Shown piece after piece: positions 43,285 to 64,000 of a stretch of DNA of 64,000 nucleotides. Origin of the DNA: Acidimicrobiaceae bacterium (GTDB taxonomy: Bacteria; Actinomycetota; Acidimicrobiia; Acidimicrobiales; Ilumatobacteraceae); assembly GCA_020637295.1 (NCBI GenBank), contig JACJWF010000004.1, positions 170,228 through 234,227 on the forward strand, given 5' to 3'. The translations under genes were made by a program, and so were the position numbers. The notes below the pieces were generated by a model. That model ran no database searches and had not been told where the DNA came from. It saw nothing but the letters and a program-made list of their open reading frames with translations. Every line of letters starts with the position of its first letter. Positions within the stretch are counted from its first letter, which is position 1.

Positions 43285-43451
43285 GCGTGCCGTCCGTTCC
43301 TGGTCGGGCGGGGGCGACGGGGGAATGGCAACGCCGGCGGGGCCACGGCGGGAACGCCCCGGCGGCACCACCGGCGAGCGACGAACAACGGGCTCGTCGC
43401 GGGCATGGTGGCGCAACGCGACGAGGCGCGACCCGGCGGCCACGCGACGCA

Positions 43452-43589
43452 CCCTGCTCCCATCCGGACTGTCACCGTCGGCCCCGGAGTTCCACCGGAT
43501 CGGCCCCACGCGCCGTGCCCCGCAGGGCCGTGTGCGCAGGGTTCGCGGGCTGTCACCGCCGGTCGGGAATTTCACCCAACCCCGCAGGG
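43452..43589 (-). promoter_or_regulatory. FMN riboswitch (RFN element) in the ribE leader
   Basis: The minus strand reads CCCTGCGGGGTTGGGTGAAATTCCCGACCGGCGGTGACAGCCCGCGAACC...GATCCGGTGGAACTCCGGGGCCGACGGTGACAGTCCGGATGGGAGCAGGG. P1 is CCCTGC/GCAGGG. The conserved RFN blocks are present, about 165 nt upstream of the ribE ATG. Confidence 0.9.
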
Positions 43590-43624
43590 GGATTCAGTTG
43601 TCGGCCGCGACGCTACCGGTGCGG

Positions 43625-55396: not shown

Positions 55397-55765
55397 CTAT
55401 GGAGGCTCCAGCAGCATCGTGGCCGAGGCGGTGAGCGTGACGTCCGGCAGCAGCCAGCCGACGAGTGGGGCATCGGTGCGGTCGACGAAGCTGACGGTGA
55501 CCGTCACCCGCCCACCGGCCACCACGGTGGCGACGTCGAGCGGCGCGACGCCCACGGCGGCTGCGGCCGCCTGCCCGGCGGCGCCCGCCGGGGCGGCCGC
55601 CACCGCAGCCGCCCGAGCGCCGCGCCGTGCCGCTTCCTGCACCGCCAACTGGTGGCGGGCGACCAGGCCGACCTGCAGCACTCCGGCGGCCAGCAGGCAC
55701 ACGAGGGGCAGCCCGAGGGCGAGCTCCACCGTGGCCTGCCCGCCGTCGCGGCGGCAGCGGTTCAC
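55397..55765 (-). CDS. TadE-like pilus assembly/pseudopilin protein
   Basis: GTG start in a GTGA overlap with the flp stop. N-terminus GGQATVELALGLPLVCLL is typical of TadE. 122 aa. Confidence 0.7.
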   Translation of the reverse strand: MNRCRRDGGQATVELALGLPLVCLLAAGVLQVGLVARHQLAVQEAARRGARAAAVAAAPAGAAGQAAAAAVGVAPLDVATVVAGGRVTVTVSFVDRTDAPLVGWLLPDVTLTASATMLLEPP

Positions 55766-55968
55766 AGCTTGTCGATCACGGCATCGATGACCTTGTCGAA
55801 CAGGCGGCCGACTTTGCCGGCGCCGCCACCGCCGGTGGCCCAGGCGATGACCAGCAGGGCCACCAGCGCGGCGCCCAGCAGGACCAGTGCGTACTCGGTG
55901 GTGGCCTGGCCCTCGTCGTCCTCCAGCCGCAGCAGGAAGAGATGGAGCCGGACGAGGAATGCGTGCAT
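55762..55968 (-). CDS. flp: Flp-family type IVb pilin
   Basis: 68 aa. The prepilin processing motif G/QATTEYALVLL is followed by a hydrophobic helix. GGAGG SD sequence 5 nt upstream. Confidence 0.8.
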   Translation of the reverse strand: MHAFLVRLHLFLLRLEDDEGQATTEYALVLLGAALVALLVIAWATGGGGAGKVGRLFDKVIDAVIDKL

Positions 55969-56107
55969 GACGCCTCCTTCGGAACGTGGGTGGGTTCGCG
56001 TGGCCCGTCGTGGGGCGAGGAGGCTGCAGCGCAGCGATCAAGGCGGAACATATCGGCGCCGTCGGTCGGCGGCAACCAGCCACCGGGCGGACGGATAGGG
56101 TCGGATC

Positions 56108-56776
56108 GTGAGCGTCGAGGTGACCCGCCCGCTGCCCGCCGTTGCCGTCGTCACGCTGGCCCGGCCGGAGAAGCGCAACGCCCTCTCCATCGCCGTGCGC
56201 GACGCCGTTAGCGACGCACTGGACGCGGCCGCCGCCGACGAGGACGTCAAGGTCGTCGTCATCACCGGTCAGGGCACCCACTTCAGCGCCGGGTTCGACC
56301 TGAAGGAGTTCGCCGACCCCGACGCCGAGCACCAACGACGGCTGTGGGCCTCCAGCGACCGCTTCCACCACACGGTGCTGAGCAGCCCGCTGCCCACCAT
56401 TGCCGCGGTCAACGGCCCCGCCCTTGCCGGCGGCTGCGACCTGGCCTGCATGGCCGACATCCGCATCGCCGTGCCGACCGCGCGGTTCGGCCACCCCGAG
56501 CACGCCTGGTCGCCCGTGGTCTACCGGCCGCTGCGCGACCTGATCGGCGGGGCGGCGGCGCGGGAGTTCCTGCTCACCGGGCGGGACATGGACATGGAGG
56601 AAGCCGTCCGCATCGGCCTGGTGGCCGCACTCGTCGAGCCGGAGGGGTTGATGCCGAGGGCGTTGGCAATGGCGGAGATGATCGCCCGGGCGCCGCGCAC
56701 TGCGCTGGTGTCGCTGCGGGCGCGCATCCAGCGGGCGGCGGGCATCGACGCCGGCACGGCGACGCTGGAACTGTGA
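56108..56776 (+). CDS. Enoyl-CoA hydratase/isomerase (crotonase family)
   Basis: VVTLARPEKRNAL...VVVITGQGTHFSAGFDLKEF...AAVNGPALAGGCDLA. GTG start. 222 aa. Confidence 0.85.
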   Translation: MSVEVTRPLPAVAVVTLARPEKRNALSIAVRDAVSDALDAAAADEDVKVVVITGQGTHFSAGFDLKEFADPDAEHQRRLWASSDRFHHTVLSSPLPTIAAVNGPALAGGCDLACMADIRIAVPTARFGHPEHAWSPVVYRPLRDLIGGAAAREFLLTGRDMDMEEAVRIGLVAALVEPEGLMPRALAMAEMIARAPRTALVSLRARIQRAAGIDAGTATLEL

Positions 56777-56781
56777 GCCGC

Positions 56782-57384
56782 TCACCAGGCCAGTGAGGAG
56801 ATGGCGGCCAGCAGCAGGGGCGCCACGGCCAGCAGCACGAACGACGGGAGGGTGCAGAGCACCAGCGGGGCTGCCATGCGAATTGGCAGTTGGCGGGCCA
56901 CCGCCTCGGTGCGTCGGCGGCGCTGGTGGCGAGCCTCGGCGGCCAGCCGCTCCACGATCGGCGCCAGGGGCAGCCCGTAGCGGTCGGCTGCGGCGAACGA
57001 GTCCACCAGTGGTGACGCCGCCGGGCCGACCGAGTGGCGCAGCGCGGCGAGCGCGTCGGCGAACCGCTGCCCGCTGTCCACCTGGGCCAGCACGTCGGCA
57101 AAGGCTTCGGCAACCGCCGGCGGCAGGTGGGGTGCGGCAGCACGGATGGCAGCGGCCGGTAGGTGGCCGGCGCGGACGGCCAGCACGATGAGCTCCAGCG
57201 CGTCGGGGTACGCGGCGGCGACGGCACGGCGATGGGCCCGGCGGCGCCGGCCGAGCGGATCCGGAGGCAGGCGAGCACGTCGCGGTGGGGCGGCGCCCGT
57301 GCGGGGGTGGGCTGACGGCACCAACCGGGCGGCGGCGACCACCACCAGCCCGGCGGCGAGCGCGGCCGCGCCGGCGGGGCTCAT
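56782..57384 (-). CDS. tadC: Tad pilus inner-membrane platform protein (TadC-like, T2SS-F fold)
   Basis: ATGA overlap with tadB. About 200 aa with N- and C-terminal TMs. RQLPIRMAAPLVLCTLPSFVLLAVAP. Confidence 0.65.
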   Translation of the reverse strand: MSPAGAAALAAGLVVVAAARLVPSAHPRTGAAPPRRARLPPDPLGRRRRAHRRAVAAAYPDALELIVLAVRAGHLPAAAIRAAAPHLPPAVAEAFADVLAQVDSGQRFADALAALRHSVGPAASPLVDSFAAADRYGLPLAPIVERLAAEARHQRRRRTEAVARQLPIRMAAPLVLCTLPSFVLLAVAPLLLAAISSLAW

Positions 57385-58025
57385 GCTGCGGACCCGGCGG
57401 CCCGGACGAGGCGGCGCATCCAGGCCCACCCGGCCAGGTTCAACCCCCCGCCGGCGACGGCGCACACCGCACCGGCTGGGCTGAGGAGTGCGGCGCGGAA
57501 CGACGCGCTGGTGAGCGCGCTCCAGCCGGCAAAGGCGAGGGGCACGGCCGTGAGCACTCGAGCGCTGAGGCGGGCCTGGGCCGCATGTGCCTGTGCCTCC
57601 GCCCGGGCGGCGAGGCGTTCGCGCAGCAGCGCCGCCCCGGCATCCAGCGTGGCGGCTACCGGCCCGCCGAGCTCCGCGGCGGCGCGCACGGCCTGATGGA
57701 CCACCGCCTCGTCGGCCGGGCTACCGGCCTCGTGCGCGGCACCGTCCGCAGGGAACGTCTGGGGTCGCAACGCGACGGCGGGAGCCTCCGGCCAGGCCGC
57801 GGTGGATGCCCATGCCGCACGCAGGGAAGCGCCCGCACGAACGTCGGCGGCCAGCGCGTCGAGCAGCGCCACCCAGGCCTCCGTGGACGGTGTGGCGCGG
57901 TGCCGCCGGCCGATGCGCCGTTCCCGGCCGGGCGCCACACCTCGGCGCGGCGGGCGTGGCGCGCCCGCCACTGCCGCCACCGCGACCAGCAGCGCGGCGG
58001 CGATGGCGGCGATGGCGGCGTTCAT
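57381..58025 (-). CDS. tadB: Tad pilus inner-membrane platform protein (TadB-like)
   Basis: ATGA overlap with tadA. 214 aa with hydrophobic termini. ARLSARVLTAVPLAFAGW. Confidence 0.65.
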   Translation of the reverse strand: MNAAIAAIAAALLVAVAAVAGAPRPPRRGVAPGRERRIGRRHRATPSTEAWVALLDALAADVRAGASLRAAWASTAAWPEAPAVALRPQTFPADGAAHEAGSPADEAVVHQAVRAAAELGGPVAATLDAGAALLRERLAARAEAQAHAAQARLSARVLTAVPLAFAGWSALTSASFRAALLSPAGAVCAVAGGGLNLAGWAWMRRLVRAAGSAA

Positions 58026-59005
58026 CGACGCCCCCGGCTGGGCAGCGCCACCACCTGGCCGCGTTCCACCAACGGGCGCGCCCGCAGCCGGCCATCGGTG
58101 GCCTCCACTTCGGCGATCTCTGCCACCGTCCGACGCCCGTCCGGCAGGCGGGCCACGTGCACCACCACGTCGATGCCTCGAGCCACCTCGTCGTGCACCG
58201 CGGTGAGTGGCCAGTTCGGCGTGGACTGGAGCACCAGCGACGCCAACCGCCCCAGCGCGTCCGCAGCACCGTTGGCGTGCACGGTGGCCAGCGAGCCGTC
58301 GTGGCCGGTGTTCAGCGCGTGCAGCAGGTGCACGGCTTCGGGGCCGCGGATCTCACCGACCACCAGCCGGTCGGGTCGCATCCGCAGGGCAGCGCGCAGC
58401 AGGTCGGCCAGCGTGACCTCGCCCACCCCGTCGGGCGTCGCCGTGCGGGTCTCCAGCCGCACGACGTGGGGATGGGCCAGCCGCAGTTCGGCGGTGTCCT
58501 CCAGCACGACGATCCGCTCCCCTGGGGCCGCGCCACCCGCCAGCGTGCCGAGCAGGGTGGTCTTCCCGGCGGACGTCGCCCCGCTGATCAGCAGGTTCGC
58601 CCGGCCGGCCACCAGCCGGCGCAGCAGGGCCGCGCCCTCGGGCGTGGTGAAGCGCTCCAGCGCCAGCGGAGCCACGGCGAAGCGCCGGATGGCGAGGCAC
58701 GGCCCGTCCACCGCCACCGGAGGGATGACGGCGCAGAGGCGGCTGCCGTCGGCGAGGCGGGCGTCCACCACGGGTTGGGAGCGGTCGAGCCGCCGGCCGG
58801 TGGGCGTCAGCAGGTGTTCGATGGCGGCTTCCAGGGTGGCCGGGCGCATCCGCCCCACGCGCTCCAGCGCGCCGGCGCGGTCCACCCACACCTCGCACCC
58901 GGCGTTGACGAGCAGTTCGCCGACGTCGGGGTCGTCCAGCCATCGTTCCAGCCCACCGAGCGGCGATGCCTCGGCCACCAGGTCCACTTCCAGCCGGCGG
59001 CTCAT
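58022..59005 (-). CDS. tadA: Tad/CpaF-type secretion ATPase
   Basis: Walker A GATSAGKTT, VLEDTAEL, VGEIRGPEA, NTGHDGSLATVHA. Start at MSRRLEV (59005) in an ATGA overlap with the upstream gene. Confidence 0.9.
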   Translation of the reverse strand: MSRRLEVDLVAEASPLGGLERWLDDPDVGELLVNAGCEVWVDRAGALERVGRMRPATLEAAIEHLLTPTGRRLDRSQPVVDARLADGSRLCAVIPPVAVDGPCLAIRRFAVAPLALERFTTPEGAALLRRLVAGRANLLISGATSAGKTTLLGTLAGGAAPGERIVVLEDTAELRLAHPHVVRLETRTATPDGVGEVTLADLLRAALRMRPDRLVVGEIRGPEAVHLLHALNTGHDGSLATVHANGAADALGRLASLVLQSTPNWPLTAVHDEVARGIDVVVHVARLPDGRRTVAEIAEVEATDGRLRARPLVERGQVVALPSRGRR

Positions 59006-59652
59006 GCCGCGGCCCGCAGGGTGCGGCTGAGGCTGGAGGGCAGCCGGGCAGCGAGCATGCCCGAGTCCACCGAGCGGGCGATGGCAGGGTCCCACGGCAC
59101 CTCAGCGACGATCGGTACGCCCAGCGCGTGCTCCACGTCCGAGCGGCGCAAGGCACGCCCGGGCTCGTGGACGAGGACCGCGCCAGTGGGCCCGATCTGC
59201 TGGGCCGCCGCCCGCCGCAGCGACAGGTAGCAGGCCCGGGTGACCAGCAGGGTCTGGGCAGCGGCGGCTCGCAGGGCCGGTGGCGGGGCCCCGGTGCCGG
59301 CGTCCACCACCACCTCTGCGCCAGTGGCGTGGAGGCCTGCGGCGAGGGCGGCCCAGCGAGCGGCCGGCACGTCGCGCGCCGCGGCGATGGCGGCCGGGGA
59401 GCCGCGGTGGATGAGCCGCAGGCCGTCGCTGACGCCGTCCGCCAGGCGGAGCAGCGCATGGCCGTCCGCGACGGGCGACGCGAGCCAGTCGAACACGCCG
59501 GGGCCGGACGGCTCGGAGAGGCCCAATGCGGCCGGCAGGTCGCCGGCGAGGTCGACCAGCAGGCACGGGCCGTGCTGGGCGTGGAGGAGCGCGAGCGTCG
59601 CGGCGACCACGGTGGTGCCGCTGCCGCCCTTGGCGGAACAGAGGATGAGCAT
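59002..59652 (-). CDS. ParA/MinD-like ATPase (TadZ/CpaE-like, ATPase domain only)
   Basis: Deviant Walker A CSAKGGSGTT. About 216 aa with no receiver-like N-domain. An alternative start lies at 59670. Confidence 0.7.
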   Translation of the reverse strand: MLILCSAKGGSGTTVVAATLALLHAQHGPCLLVDLAGDLPAALGLSEPSGPGVFDWLASPVADGHALLRLADGVSDGLRLIHRGSPAAIAAARDVPAARWAALAAGLHATGAEVVVDAGTGAPPPALRAAAAQTLLVTRACYLSLRRAAAQQIGPTGAVLVHEPGRALRRSDVEHALGVPIVAEVPWDPAIARSVDSGMLAARLPSSLSRTLRAAA

Positions 59653-59706
59653 GACCGACCCCCAGGACATGGGACGGGATTCAACTGGGGGAAGTCGAAG
59701 CGGAAC

Positions 59707-61326: not shown

Positions 61327-62166
61327 TCAGGGCAGCTCCGTCGGCATCGCTCCGCCCATCACGAACGCCGCGAGGTTGCGGGTGAACATCTCCGCCGCCC
61401 GGTCCGCGCCGAGCTGGGTTCCCGCCGCGGCGTGGGGGGTGATGATCACGTTCGGCAGGTCCCACAGCGGGCTGTCCGCCGGCAGCGGCTCGGTGACGAA
61501 GACATCCAGTGCGGCGCCGCCGAGGTGCCCGCGAGCGAGCGCGTCGGCGAGCGCCGCCTCGTCGACCAGTTCTCCTCGGCCGACGTTCACCAGGTGGGCG
61601 CCGGGGCGCAGCATCGCCAGTTCGGCAGCCCCGACCATCCCACGGGTGTCGTCCGTGAGGGGCGCCGTCAGCACCAGGTCGTCCACCGTCGCCAGCAGCT
61701 CGGCCAACCGGGTGACGGGCCAGGTCTCGCACGGCTCGTCGCCGCGGGGCTGGCGGCGCATGCCGATGACCCGCATGCCGAAGTGCGGCGCCAGCCGGGC
61801 GACCTCGGCGCCGATGTGCCCGAGCCCGACGATGCCCATCGTGCGGCCCTCGAGGTCCTCGTTGCGGATGTCCGTCCTGGCCCACTCGTGGCGATGCTGG
61901 AAGTCGGCGAACCGCCGAGCGTTCCGGCACAGCGCGATGACGTGCATCATCACGCTGTGCGCGATCGGCCGGGCGGTGGCACCGGGGGAGTTGGTGAGAC
62001 GGATGCCGCGGTTGCGCAGTTCGGCGAACACCGGGCTGTCCATGCCGGCGGCGAACATGTGCAGCCAGCGCACGTTCGGCAGGCGCATCAGGGTGCCGAA
62101 GAAGGCGTGCCCGCGGCCGGACAGCCACAAGTCGTGAGAGTAGGTGGCGAGGTCCACCGCCGCCAT
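61327..62166 (-). CDS. D-isomer-specific 2-hydroxyacid dehydrogenase (NAD-binding). The coding signal extends about 41 codons upstream of the only canonical start.
   Basis: GIVGLGHIGAEVA (GxGxxG), VNVGRGELVDE, ITPHAAA. The in-frame stretch 62167-62289 has near-uniform G/C at third positions but no ATG, GTG or TTG. Confidence 0.8.
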   Translation of the reverse strand: MAAVDLATYSHDLWLSGRGHAFFGTLMRLPNVRWLHMFAAGMDSPVFAELRNRGIRLTNSPGATARPIAHSVMMHVIALCRNARRFADFQHRHEWARTDIRNEDLEGRTMGIVGLGHIGAEVARLAPHFGMRVIGMRRQPRGDEPCETWPVTRLAELLATVDDLVLTAPLTDDTRGMVGAAELAMLRPGAHLVNVGRGELVDEAALADALARGHLGGAALDVFVTEPLPADSPLWDLPNVIITPHAAAGTQLGADRAAEMFTRNLAAFVMGGAMPTELP

Positions 62167-62285: not shown

Positions 62286-62360
62286 TCAGGCCGACTGCAC
62301 CTTCTTGACGGCCACGGCCACCAACCCGATGAGTGCGAGGAGGAGGATGAGTCGCTTCAT
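62286..62360 (-). CDS. 24-codon hydrophobic small ORF (MKRLILLLALIGLVAVAVKKVQSA) immediately upstream of the dehydrogenase
   Basis: ATG start, high GC3 (22 of 24 codons end in G or C), and a stop that overlaps the first codon of the dehydrogenase-frame coding signal (CTGA). There is no obvious SD sequence, so this is tentative. Confidence 0.35.
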   Translation of the reverse strand: MKRLILLLALIGLVAVAVKKVQSA

Positions 62361-62418
62361 GGGTGGGAGCCTAGTCCCGCTCCACTCTCCCGGTCGGCGC
62401 CCACTACCCTCGACCGAC

Positions 62419-62514
62419 GGAGGTGTCCGTGCGCCTGGTGGGCACCGCCGCCTTCAAAGCGGTTGGGGCAGGCGATCCCTGCCCGGCGGGTTCGATTCCC
62501 GTCCACCTCCGCCA
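62419..62514 (+). tRNA. selC: tRNA-Sec (anticodon UCA)
   Basis: 96 nt: GGAGGTGT...CTTCAAA loop...long variable arm GGGCAGG-CGATC-CCTGCCC...GGGTTCGATTCCC...CACCTCC-G-CCA. It aligns closely block by block with my recollection of E. coli selC (CTTCAAA, TTGGGGC, variable stem, GGTTCGAnTCC, discriminator G, CCA). Confidence 0.85.
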
Positions 62515-62545: not shown

Positions 62546-62574
62546 TTGACATTGTGACAAGTTTGCTTTACACT
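62546..62574 (+). promoter_or_regulatory. Strong sigma-70-type promoter: -35 TTGACA, 17-nt spacer, -10 TACACT, feeding a leaderless ATG at 62583
   Basis: A consensus -35 and a TANNNT -10 inside an AT-rich island. Only 8 nt separate the -10 from the ATG. Confidence 0.55.
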
Positions 62575-62582
62575 CGCGCGAC

Positions 62583-63014
62583 ATGACGAACGCCCACAGC
62601 ACCACCAGTTCCCCCAACCGAGGTCCCCGGCTCAGTGCCGCGGACAAGCACCAGCGCGACCGGTACCTGCGGGAGTTCATCCCGGCCATCGTGACCTTCT
62701 GGATCCTGCTGGCCGTGGTGCTCAACACCGTTGACGAGCAGACGTACGGGGCGCGGCTCTGGGTCCTCCTGCCGGTGCTGCCGATGATCGGCGTCGCCGT
62801 CGCGCTCTACCGTGCCGTGCAGCGGGCCGACGAGTACGGCCGGGTGGTGCTGCTCGAGTGCATGGCGCTGGGCTTCGGCGCAGCGATGGTCGCCTCGTTG
62901 GCGCTCGGGTTCCTCGGCATCATCGGTGAGGCGTGGACCTTCGGCGGATGGCTGGTCTTCGGCATCGGCATGACGACCTGGACCGGGTCGCTCCTCGTGC
63001 GGAACTTGCGCTGA
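62583..63014 (+). CDS. Small integral membrane protein (4 predicted TM), partner of the downstream XRE regulator
   Basis: 143 aa. Polar N-terminus, then hydrophobic segments FIPAIVTFWILLAVVL, LWVLLPVLPMIGVAVAL, ALGFGAAMVASLALGFLG, WLVFGIGMTTW. Confidence 0.65.
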   Translation: MTNAHSTTSSPNRGPRLSAADKHQRDRYLREFIPAIVTFWILLAVVLNTVDEQTYGARLWVLLPVLPMIGVAVALYRAVQRADEYGRVVLLECMALGFGAAMVASLALGFLGIIGEAWTFGGWLVFGIGMTTWTGSLLVRNLR

Positions 63015-63229
63015 TGGAGAACAGCCTGAGGGTTCGGCGCGCCGCAAACGGCTGGAGCCAGGCACACCTGGCCGACCTGCTGGGCGTCAGCCGCCAGACG
63101 GTGAACGCGCTGGAGACGGGGCGCTACGACCCCAGCCTGCCGCTGGCCTTCCGGCTGGCGCGCGTCTTCGCCACCACGATCGAAGACCTATTCACGCCCA
63201 CCGACAGCGACCTGCGATCGCCCGCATGA
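63014..63229 (+). CDS. Short XRE-family helix-turn-helix transcriptional regulator
   Basis: LRVRRAANGWSQAHLADLLGVSRQTVNALETGRYDPSLPLAFRLARVF. 71 aa. The ATG shares one base with the upstream TGA (TGATG). Confidence 0.85.
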   Translation: MENSLRVRRAANGWSQAHLADLLGVSRQTVNALETGRYDPSLPLAFRLARVFATTIEDLFTPTDSDLRSPA

Positions 63230-63322
63230 CGGTTCGAACCGTGGTCCAGGGCAAGCCGATGCGGACGTGGAACCTGAGGCCGCCGGGTAGCGCCTGCGCC
63301 CGTCCAGGTGCATCATGGACTC

Positions 63323-64000
63323 GTGAGGTTCGCACGCTTGCTCGCGGCGGCCTGCCTGCTGGTCGCCTGCACGACGACGCCGGCCGGGACCACACCCTCA
63401 ACGACCCGATCGCCGACGACGGCCGAGCAGACCTCCGTCTCCACGGTCGCGCCGACGGCCGAACCGACCACCACCGTCTCGTACCCCACGACCACGGAGC
63501 ACACGCTGCCGGCCGACTGCGACGCCACCCCGCTGCTGGCCGAGGTGGATGCCCGCATGGCGTCGGCCCGCCTGGCGCCCGGTAGCGGCTGGCGGACCGA
63601 CGGTTCGCTGTCCACGCCGTTCGACGCCATCACGCAGGACGCGGAGGAGTTCCGCTACCGGATGGGCCTGGACTGCCGGTTGCGCGCGTCGCAGCGAGGC
63701 GCCGACGGCTCCGTGCGACTGCTGGTCGCGGCGTGGACCGGGCAGCGCAGCGCCTTCGTCGTCCAAGCCAGCGATGCGCCGAGCACCCCGTACCGAGCCG
63801 ACCAGCGCCTCCAGTTGATGGTCGAGATCGCCTGGGGCGAGTGGCTCGTCGACCAGTTCGTCTGGGCCGGCACGCTCGCTGACGGCCGTTCGATGGTCAT
63901 CGGGACCGCCGACGCACCACTGGCCGTCGCAGCGAAGGCATGGCCCGCTGCCGTGCCCCGCTTCGAGGACCTGCCGGTCACCATCGCCGCCCAGAGGTAC
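63323..64000 (+). CDS. Lipoprotein, function unknown (3'-truncated by the window end)
   Basis: Not in the ORF track because no stop is reached. GTG start gives VRFARLLAAACLLVAC (lipobox), a Thr/Pro-rich linker, then a globular part. The frame is open to base 64000 with high GC3. Confidence 0.6.
   Translation, partial: MRFARLLAAACLLVACTTTPAGTTPSTTRSPTTAEQTSVSTVAPTAEPTTTVSYPTTTEHTLPADCDATPLLAEVDARMASARLAPGSGWRTDGSLSTPFDAITQDAEEFRYRMGLDCRLRASQRGADGSVRLLVAAWTGQRSAFVVQASDAPSTPYRADQRLQLMVEIAWGEWLVDQFVWAGTLADGRSMVIGTADAPLAVAAKAWPAAVPRFEDLPVTIAAQRY

What the first reader, a model, noticed from the sequence alone, without database searches (positions are those of the whole stretch)
62419..62514. A selenocysteine tRNA (selC) implies a selenoproteome, but no selenoprotein gene is visible in the window
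The 96-nt sequence has the UCA anticodon in a CTTCAAA loop, a 7-bp long variable arm, discriminator G plus encoded CCA, and an extended acceptor. It aligns block by block with my memory of E. coli selC. In my hand fold the eighth acceptor pair is a U:C mismatch.

Its presence predicts selA, selB and selD plus at least one UGA/SECIS-containing gene elsewhere in the genome. I checked every junction between adjacent same-frame ORFs in this window and found no convincing in-frame UGA read-through candidate. selC is also a classic integration site, but nothing island-like follows it here.
Basis: partly seen in the sequence, partly recalled or inferred. Interest (0 to 1): 0.6.

Follow-up and report, generated by a model that had tools for sequence, protein, structure and literature searches.

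The report
Genuine selenocysteine tRNA, working Sec system
The 96-base sequence is a real selenocysteine tRNA gene in an Acidimicrobiales (Actinomycetota) genome that also carries selA, selB, selD and at least four selenoprotein genes elsewhere, so it is an ordinary, complete selenocysteine system whose one 'odd' base pair disappears once the tRNA is folded the actinobacterial way.

Summary
Confirmed and ordinary. ARAGORN and Rfam both call tRNA-Sec at 62419-62514 (+): anticodon UCA, 7-bp variable stem, G73, encoded CCA. The genome holds selA and selB (translationally coupled, about 83 kb upstream on the same contig) and a Cys-type selD. I found no Sec formate dehydrogenase. A genome-wide in-frame-TGA screen found four selenoprotein genes outside the window: UGSC family, PrdB-like, a ResA/TlpA-like redoxin (UxxC) and an AhpD-like protein (CxxU). 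In each, the TGA is conserved in relatives (down to about 30-55% identity, depending on the family) and a conserved SECIS-like hairpin follows it. All four belong to published families.

The C pairs with the G 5' of the T-stem, giving 7 + 6 = 13 bp. This fold was proposed for mycobacteria in 2026 and fits 62 of 81 actinobacterial tRNA-Sec genes sampled.

The window has no read-through gene. No integrase, att repeat or GC shift follows selC, although the downstream about 4.8 kb is not conserved in relatives. Interest is low.

The parts
62419..62514 (+). selC, the tRNA-Sec gene (96 nt including G73 and encoded CCA)
   Evidence: ARAGORN. Rfam RF01852, 66.5 bits against gathering score 47. The cloverleaf is 99.8% paired across 19 Acidimicrobiia sequences, with 14 pairs showing compensatory changes.
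62419..62425 (+). Acceptor 5' strand GGAGGTG (7 bp with 62504-62510)
   Evidence: All 7 pairs form in 19 of 19 sequences. Pair 6 covaries U:A to C:G.
62426..62428 (+).
   Evidence: Pair 8:85 forms in 0 of 19. Across the phylum N8 is U (49) or A (13) opposite an invariant C.
62429..62445 (+). D-arm: 4 bp, a bulged G (62433), 2 bp, and the 4-nt loop TGGT
   Evidence: Three of the six pairs covary and all cells are paired. The bulged purine is conserved across the Acidimicrobiia sampled.
62454..62456 (+). Anticodon TCA (reads UGA), inside the loop CTTCAAA at 62452-62458
62466..62484 (+). Long variable arm: 7-bp stem and 5-nt loop
   Evidence: All 7 pairs show changes on both sides and 100% of cells are paired.
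62485..62503 (+). T-arm read as a 6-bp stem (GGCGGG / CCCGTC) with loop TTCGATT. G67 (62485) pairs with C85 (62503).
   Evidence: G:C in 19 of 19. 62 of 81 actinobacterial tRNA-Sec genes allow only this pairing. The same fold is proposed for mycobacteria in PMC13449736.
62511..62514 (+). Discriminator G73 and genomically encoded CCA
   Evidence: Sequence. GCCA is present in most relatives.
61327..62166 (-). Upstream neighbour: D-isomer 2-hydroxyacid dehydrogenase. It is the conserved flank of selC.
   Evidence: PF02826, 199 bits. Found beside selC in 19 of 110 relatives' loci at 56-69% identity.
62546..62574 (+). Sigma-70-like promoter TTGACA-17-TACACT for the downstream membrane-protein/XRE pair. 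It is not part of selC.
   Evidence: 10 of 12 matches; 0 expected in shuffles.
62583..63229 (+). Downstream pair: a 143-aa membrane protein (62583-63014) and a 71-aa XRE-family HTH regulator (63014-63229, whose ATG overlaps the upstream TGA)
   Evidence: HTH_3, 54.5 bits. Neither gene was found in any of the 110 relatives' selC loci.
63308..64000 (+). Start of a 351-aa putative lipoprotein that runs off the window. It opens about 4.8 kb of non-conserved DNA between selC and a sigma-factor gene.
   Evidence: No Pfam hit. In L032 a sigma factor 91.6% identical to ours lies directly 3' of selC, whereas here it lies at window-equivalent 67282-68262.

Best explanation
This is the functional selC gene of an Acidimicrobiales bacterium. 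By analogy with the characterised bacterial pathway, the tRNA is charged with serine by SerRS. SelA converts it to Sec-tRNA using selenophosphate made by a Cys-type SelD. SelB delivers it to UGA codons that are followed by a SECIS hairpin.

The targets here are at least four redox-type selenoprotein genes outside the window: UGSC family, PrdB-like, a ResA/TlpA-like redoxin lipoprotein (UxxC) and an AhpD-like protein (CxxU). Formate dehydrogenase is not among them.

The tRNA most likely folds with a 7-bp acceptor stem and a 6-bp T-stem. This keeps the 13-bp acceptor/T helix that, per the literature quoted, characterises tRNA-Sec. It also has a 6-bp D-stem carrying one bulged purine.

Shown: the tRNA call, the genes, the conserved in-frame UGAs, the hairpins and the covariation. 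Inferred: charging, conversion, delivery, and the fold in the cell.
For: - tRNA identity.
- Cloverleaf covariation: 14 of 31 pairs have compensatory changes, 99.8% of cells are paired, and 0 of 500 shuffles reach this.
- Machinery: selA, selB and selD all score over their NCBIfam cut-offs. SelB has the GTP_EFTU, Beta-barrel_SelB and SelB-wing_3 domains, its ATG overlaps the selA stop, and SelA scores 317 bits on PF03841. SelD carries Cys at the active site, TSCGGCAAK.
- UGSC selenoprotein: NF041046, 159.6 bits over the cut-off of 125. 31 of 31 homologues have exactly one TGA.
- PrdB-like: TIGR04483, 134 bits, spanning the U. 11 of 11 full-length homologues have one TGA.
- Redoxin: the AhpC-TSA and Redoxin hits span the U. 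About 25 orthologues have one TGA, and the U aligns to Cys in three paralogues within the genome.
- AhpD-like: the CMD hit spans the U. Four homologues have one TGA (down to 54% identity), and two distant homologues carry Cys.
- SECIS-like hairpins are conserved after each UGA, with GU in the apical loop. The PrdB-like stem shows a compensatory C:G to U:A change, the redoxin hairpin is invariant at synonymous sites, and the AhpD-like hairpin is absent from the Cys forms.
- Lineage-wide trait: tRNA-Sec scores over the Rfam gathering score in 47 of 61 relatives and 124 of 201 phylum genomes.
- 7/6 fold: and PMC13449736.
Against: - There is no direct evidence of expression, charging or selenium incorporation. 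The genome appears to be a metagenome-assembled draft (39 contigs, 92.7% complete).
- The G67:C85 pair is invariant within the 7/6 class. It is therefore supported by pairing potential and by the phylum-wide switch between the two classes (the contested base is C with N8 = U/A, or G with N8 = C/U), not by covariation at that pair.
- selB scores only just over its cut-off (251 against 242).
- The PrdB-like and AhpD-like proteins score below or at family cut-offs, so their family names are approximate.
Confidence: 0.93

Rival explanations
1. The tRNA adopts the canonical bacterial 8/5 fold. A tolerated U:C mismatch forms the eighth acceptor pair and G67 is unpaired between the variable arm and the T-stem.
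For: 8/5 is the textbook bacterial fold (PMC5330540). Eleven of the 81 actinobacterial genes sampled are true 8/5. The distance from the 5' end to the D-stem (10 nt) is the same in both readings. G67:C85 never varies within the 7/6 class, so covariation cannot prove it.
Against: Pair 8:85 forms in 0 of 19 sequences. Across the phylum N8 drifts between U and A opposite an invariant C, which is not how a paired position behaves. The alternative G:C pair is available in 62 of 62 such genes. Where 8/5 really applies, the contested base is G paired with C8 or U8.
Confidence: 0.2
2. selC marks an integration site, and the roughly 4.8 kb after it (membrane protein, XRE regulator, lipoprotein, VOC, GNAT and unknowns) is an old, degraded island that has lost its integrase and att sites.
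For: The upstream flank is conserved in at least 19 relatives, but none of the three downstream genes is found beside selC in 110 loci. In L032 a sigma factor 91.6% identical to ours lies directly 3' of selC, whereas here it is 4.8 kb further on. A small XRE regulator with its own strong promoter is typical accessory content.
Against: There is no integrase or recombinase domain. No repeat of 20 nt or more of the tRNA 3' end exists anywhere in the genome, and only chance-level repeats lie in the interval. GC is 0.66-0.75 against a genome value of 0.71. The comparison genome belongs to another family, so ordinary rearrangement explains the difference equally well.
Confidence: 0.12
3. The gene is a relic, or a tRNA-Sec-like tRNA that does not insert selenocysteine (for example one that reads UGA as Cys or Ser).
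For: None specific. Such tRNA-Sec-like species have been described in other bacteria (PMC5389517, listed).
Against: Complete selA, selB and selD are present. Four gene families keep a single in-frame UGA with a SECIS hairpin across relatives, while their Cys homologues lack the hairpin. The tRNA sequence is under strong structural constraint across the order.
Confidence: 0.02

Closest known systems
Mycobacterial tRNA-Sec with a 7-bp acceptor and 6-bp T-stem (RNA Biol 2026, PMC13449736)
   Same: Same 5' end (GGAGGYG), the same 7 + 6 = 13 bp acceptor/T domain, G73, encoded CCA and a long variable arm.
   Different: Here the D-stem carries a conserved bulged purine (4 bp + 1 + 2 bp) that I saw mainly in Acidimicrobiia sequences. 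selC lies 83 kb from selAB. That paper predicts FDH as the sole mycobacterial selenoprotein, whereas this genome has no Sec-FDH and has four other selenoproteins.
E. coli selC / tRNA-Sec (Rfam RF01852, 8/5 fold)
   Same: UCA anticodon, 13-bp acceptor/T domain, 6-bp D-stem with a 4-nt loop, long variable arm, G73, and dependence on selA, selB and selD.
   Different: The 13 bp are split 7/6 rather than 8/5, the linker is 3 nt rather than 2 nt, and the D-stem is bulged. No island is integrated at selC. The E. coli features are recalled from the literature cited, not re-derived here.
Aquatic-metagenome selenoprotein families of Zhang and Gladyshev (GOS, PMC2398784): UGSC-containing, PrdB, Prx-like/Trx-like UxxC, AhpD-like 2 CxxU
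   Same: All four selenoproteins found here fall into these listed families with the same Sec motifs (UxxC, UxxC, UxxC, CxxU). That paper reports UGSC and AhpD-like 2 as enriched in non-marine waters.
   Different: Here they are placed in one Acidimicrobiales genome together with its machinery. The PrdB-like protein has an extra C-terminal region of about 165 aa and scores below the PrdB equivalog cut-off (134 against 300 bits).

Membership tests
Bacterial tRNA-Sec (Rfam RF01852) | Score at or above the Rfam gathering threshold, and an independent predictor call | tested here: met
   66.5 bits against 47. ARAGORN calls tRNA-SeC.
Bacterial tRNA-Sec (Rfam RF01852) | UCA anticodon in a 7-nt loop | tested here: met
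   TCA at 62454-62456 in the loop CTTCAAA.
Bacterial tRNA-Sec (Rfam RF01852) | 13-bp acceptor plus T-stem helix | tested here: met
   7 + 6 bp, all 13 pairs forming in 19 of 19 sequences.
Bacterial tRNA-Sec (Rfam RF01852) | Long variable arm and a 6-bp D-stem with a 4-nt loop | tested here: met
   7-bp variable stem, all pairs covarying. The D-stem has 6 bp plus one bulged purine, with 3 pairs covarying.
Bacterial tRNA-Sec (Rfam RF01852) | G73 discriminator | tested here: met
   G at 62511, conserved in relatives.
Bacterial tRNA-Sec (Rfam RF01852) | Serylation by SerRS, conversion by SelA, binding by SelB | not testable with these tools
   Needs biochemistry. Only the presence of selA, selB and selD was shown.
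Canonical E. coli-type 8/5 tRNA-Sec fold | Eighth acceptor base pair (position 8 with position 85 of this gene) | tested here: not met
   U opposite C. The pair forms in 0 of 19 sequences, and 62 of 81 phylum genes allow only the 7/6 alternative.
Bacterial Sec-decoding system | selA, selB and selD in the same genome | tested here: met
   386, 251 and 316 bits, all over the curated cut-offs. Domains confirmed.
Bacterial Sec-decoding system | At least one gene with a conserved in-frame UGA followed by a SECIS hairpin | tested here: met
   Four genes.
UGSC family selenoprotein (NF041046 / PF24696) | Score over the curated cut-off, and a U-G-S-C motif with the U encoded by TGA | tested here: met
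   159.6 bits against 125, and 154.8 bits on PF24696. 31 of 31 homologues have one TGA.
D-proline reductase PrdB (TIGR04483) | Score over the equivalog cut-off | tested here: not met
   134 bits against 300. It also falls below the subfamily model TIGR01918 (40.7 against 65.45). Call it PrdB-like only; no prdA partner was looked for.
selC-associated genomic island | Integrase next to the tRNA, a direct repeat of the tRNA 3' end, and atypical composition | tested here: not met
   No integrase domain, no repeat of 20 nt or more, and native GC.

The most novel reading that the evidence does not exclude
Most Actinomycetota, this genome included, may use a tRNA-Sec built 7/6 with a 3-nt acceptor-to-D linker instead of the textbook bacterial 8/5. 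Acidimicrobiia add a conserved bulged purine in the D-stem, the arm that SelA reads (per the paper quoted). If so, the 7/6 form proposed for mycobacteria in 2026 would be the phylum's main form (62 of 81 genes sampled), with SelA and SelB adapted to it. This lineage would also be an example of a Sec system kept purely for small thiol-redox selenoproteins, with no formate dehydrogenase.
Probability: 0.6. Interest if true: 0.35.

Novelty: already known. Interest (0 to 1): 0.17.

Why it matters
It matters little beyond correct annotation. The window holds a standard selC, and the genome's four UGA-containing genes should be annotated as selenoproteins rather than split or truncated ORFs.

Two modest points may interest specialists. 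First, the 7/6 fold recently proposed for mycobacterial tRNA-Sec appears to be the majority form across Actinomycetota. Models that assume 8/5 score these genes lower and display a spurious mismatch. Second, this Acidimicrobiales lineage keeps the whole Sec apparatus for UGSC, PrdB-like, redoxin and AhpD-like proteins without any Sec formate dehydrogenase.

Tried and rejected
- Sec formate dehydrogenase: all eight PF00384 loci have open frames with no in-frame stop, and none of my TGA candidates lies near them.
- SelD as a selenoprotein: rejected, because it has Cys at the active site.
- Screen for Sec near protein termini with a CxxU/UxxC filter: 30 candidates, none convincing by eye. Only C2:19206 was also Pfam-scanned, and it had no hit.
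- Hairpin-filtered candidates other than the four: the Fur, Maf, luciferase-like, SOD and acyl-CoA dehydrogenase domains all end before the TGA, so these are ordinary stops.
- Paralogue test hits where the 'U' aligned to C at C4:73878, C16:7705, C23:175156 and C34:220893: judged to be gene junctions or duplicated DNA, not Sec.
- att-site search with the tRNA 3' end: only 16-mers with one mismatch, on other contigs.
- The repeat between the tRNA 5' half and position 6256 of L256 (76% over 29 nt): treated as chance in 70% GC DNA.
- Earlier notes of this scan: nothing on selenocysteine in this genome.
- An error of my own: translated the small regulator from 63016 instead of 63014, which is the wrong frame. 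This was corrected (HTH_3, 54.5 bits; still absent from relatives' selC loci).
- Not done: a Pfam scan of all 128 same-frame TGA junctions. The selenoproteome count of four is therefore a minimum.

Full report
**Observation**

ARAGORN finds two tRNA genes in the window. One is tRNA-SeC with anticodon tca at exactly 62419-62514 on the + strand. Rfam's tRNA-Sec model (RF01852) matches 62419-62510 at 66.5 bits, against a gathering score of 47, with E = 2.4e-11. The sequence shows the loop CTTCAAA with TCA at 62454-62456, a long variable arm, G at 62511 and an encoded CCA at 62512-62514.

**The fold**

I collected tRNA-Sec genes from 30 relatives in the same genus and order and from 50 more genomes across the phylum. 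All 30 close relatives keep U8 and the opposing C. One of them has a compensatory change at pair 6 yet leaves U8 opposite C.

The C (62503) can instead pair with the G (62485) that precedes the T-stem. That gives GGCGGG/CCCGTC, a 6-bp T-stem, next to a 7-bp acceptor, for a total of 13 bp. A 2026 paper proposes this same 7/6 arrangement, with the same GGAGGCG 5' end, for mycobacterial tRNA-Sec (PMC13449736). Secmarker's authors describe 8/5 as the bacterial norm and list 7/5 exceptions, but not this form (PMC5330540).

Among the 81 actinobacterial genes:

| Class | Count | Bases |
|---|---|---|
| Only 7/6 possible | 62 | N8 = U (49) or A (13); contested base C; G at T-stem position 6 |
| Only 8/5 possible | 11 | contested base G, paired with C8 or U8 |
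| Both possible | 2 | |
| Neither possible | 4 | |
| 12-nt 3' tail | 2 | |

On a gap-free alignment of 19 Acidimicrobiia sequences, the 7/6 cloverleaf has 99.8% of cells paired. Fourteen of its 31 pairs show changes on both sides, and 0 of 500 shuffles reach that. Under 8/5 the eighth pair forms in 0 of 19. G67:C85 is invariant, so it rests on pairing potential and on the phylum-wide switch between the two classes, not on covariation at that pair.

The D-stem is 4 bp, one bulged purine, then 2 bp, with a TGGT loop. Three of its pairs covary. Most other actinobacterial sequences sampled have a plain 6-bp D-stem.

**Machinery**

The window is contig C34:170228-234227 of a 4.14-Mb, 39-contig, 70.8% GC genome estimated 92.7% complete.
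- selA lies at C34:148233-149543 on the minus strand: 436 aa, TIGR00474 386 bits, PF03841 317 bits.
- selB follows it: 575 aa, TIGR00475 251 bits against a cut-off of 242, with the GTP_EFTU, Beta-barrel_SelB and SelB-wing_3 domains. Its ATG overlaps the selA stop.
- Both lie about 83 kb upstream of selC on the same contig.
- selD is on contig C1: TIGR00476 316 bits, followed, judging from its sequence, by an RNase HII gene. It carries Cys, not Sec, in TSCGGCAAK.

**Selenoproteins**

None of the eight molybdopterin-oxidoreductase loci has an in-frame stop, so the usual actinobacterial selenoprotein, FdhA, is absent from the assembly.

I screened every in-frame TGA whose two flanks both show the coding pattern of this genome (GC3 at least 0.85, GC1 above GC2). 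This gave 128 junctions. Four are selenoprotein genes:

| Gene | TGA position | Motif | Family evidence | TGA in relatives |
|---|---|---|---|---|
| UGSC family | C1(-) 463491 | U-GSC | NF041046, 159.6 bits (cut-off 125) | 31 of 31 homologues have exactly one TGA, down to 29% identity |
| PrdB-like, 384 aa | C37(-) 134940 | TPV-U-PLC | TIGR04483, 134 bits, spanning the U but below the cut-off | all 11 full-length homologues have one TGA, down to 55% identity |
| ResA/TlpA-like redoxin with a lipoprotein-like N-terminus | C1(-) 559360 | FWAPT-U-SIC | AhpC-TSA and Redoxin hits span the U | about 25 orthologues have one TGA; distant paralogues have none; the U aligns to Cys in three paralogues of this genome |
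| AhpD-like (CMD family) | C1(-) 498981 | DCGT-U | PF02627, 23.4 bits, spanning the U | homologues at 92, 55 and 54% identity keep one TGA; two at 29-39% carry Cys |

Each UGA is followed by a conserved hairpin with GU in the apical loop:
- UGSC: an 8-bp stem with loop GUG, placing G23-U24 counted from the U of UGA. From memory, that is the spacing of the E. coli fdhF element.
- PrdB-like: a 6-bp stem with loop CGUGA, and a compensatory C:G to U:A change in L068.
- Redoxin: GCC.CCUC-GGUC-GAGG.GGC, invariant at synonymous sites among orthologues only about 60% identical.
- AhpD-like: GCCUGGC-AGUU-GCCRGG, present in the Sec forms and absent from the Cys forms.

All four families and their motifs are listed in the GOS selenoproteome survey (PMC2398784). 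I did not scan all 128 junctions against Pfam, so four is a minimum.

**The window itself**

The four same-frame TGA junctions inside the window are ordinary gene ends or antisense frames. At the SOD gene and at two acyl-CoA dehydrogenase genes the domains stop before the TGA.

**Lineage**

Exact-pattern matches to the 5' half of this tRNA come from MAGs titled Acidimicrobiales, Acidimicrobiia, Ilumatobacteraceae, Aldehydirespiratoraceae and similar. tRNA-Sec scores over the Rfam gathering score in 47 of 61 relatives and in 124 of 201 genomes sampled across the phylum. The trait is old and common in the lineage.

**Island question**

Upstream of selC lie a 2-hydroxyacid dehydrogenase, a CYTH-CHAD protein and a ParA-like gene. 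The dehydrogenase is beside selC in at least 19 relatives.

Downstream come a strong promoter-like site, a 143-aa membrane protein, an XRE-family regulator (HTH_3, 54.5 bits) and a putative lipoprotein. Beyond the window are a VOC/glyoxalase protein, a GNAT acetyltransferase and unknowns, up to a sigma-factor gene at window-equivalent 67282-68262. None of the three downstream genes within the window is near selC in 110 relatives' loci. In one genome of another family, a sigma factor 91.6% identical to ours lies directly after selC.

However, there is no integrase, no repeat of 20 nt or more of the tRNA 3' end, and no GC shift. I read this as a variable accessory stretch and give a degraded island about 12%.

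**Verdict**

This is a genuine, complete and conventional selenocysteine system. The novelty is low, because the tRNA is found by standard tools, the fold variant was published in 2026, and the selenoprotein families were described in 2005-2008.

Noticed in passing
window 43448-43593 (-): FMN riboswitch (RF00050), 94.1 bits against a gathering score of 66.2, full length.
   Followed up: no
window 62546-62574 (+): Near-consensus sigma-70-type promoter TTGACA-17-TACACT, 32 nt after selC and in front of the membrane-protein/XRE pair. None is expected in shuffles. The first hexamer sits in a partly palindromic stretch (TTGACATTGTGACAA) that could be the regulator's operator.
   Followed up: partly
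window 62515 to window-equivalent 67281 (L256:1515-6281): About 4.8 kb between selC and a sigma-factor gene is not conserved next to selC in relatives. In L032 the sigma factor directly follows selC. No integrase, no att repeat, and native GC.
   Followed up: partly
window 62290-62361 (-): A 24-codon hydrophobic ORF (MKRLILLLLALIGLVAVAVKKVQSA) lies 58 nt from selC and points away from it. No family hit and no homologue in relatives' selC loci. It may not be a gene.
   Followed up: partly
G006:C59:6717-9394, G007:C321:1501-4097, G022:C94:80261-82831: In three relatives a Sec-containing redoxin gene lies within 1-2 kb of the Sec-containing PrdB-like gene, which hints that the redoxin is the reductase's electron partner. 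In this genome the two genes are on different contigs.
   Followed up: no
genome G018 (closest relative; 92-99% protein identity across the four selenoproteins): It carries all four selenoprotein genes with their TGA but has no tRNA-Sec match over the Rfam threshold. This is most likely an assembly gap (90% complete).
   Followed up: no
C1:283456 with C17:13039; C18:18087 with C19:9314: Pairs of contigs share 96-99% identical protein-coding stretches, suggesting redundant contigs or strain mixture in the assembly.
   Followed up: no
window 55762-59670 (-): A Flp-pilin-like small ORF and a ParA/CpaE-like ATPase gene suggest a Tad/Flp pilus cluster upstream of selC. Only the ATPase was scanned against Pfam (CbiA, 25.8 bits).
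   Followed up: partly
C34:148233-149543 (selA): The Pfam and NCBIfam SelA models match only from about residue 60-69 onwards. The N-terminal segment, which per the paper quoted interacts with the tRNA D-arm, is short and divergent in a lineage whose tRNA-Sec D-stem is bulged.
   Followed up: no
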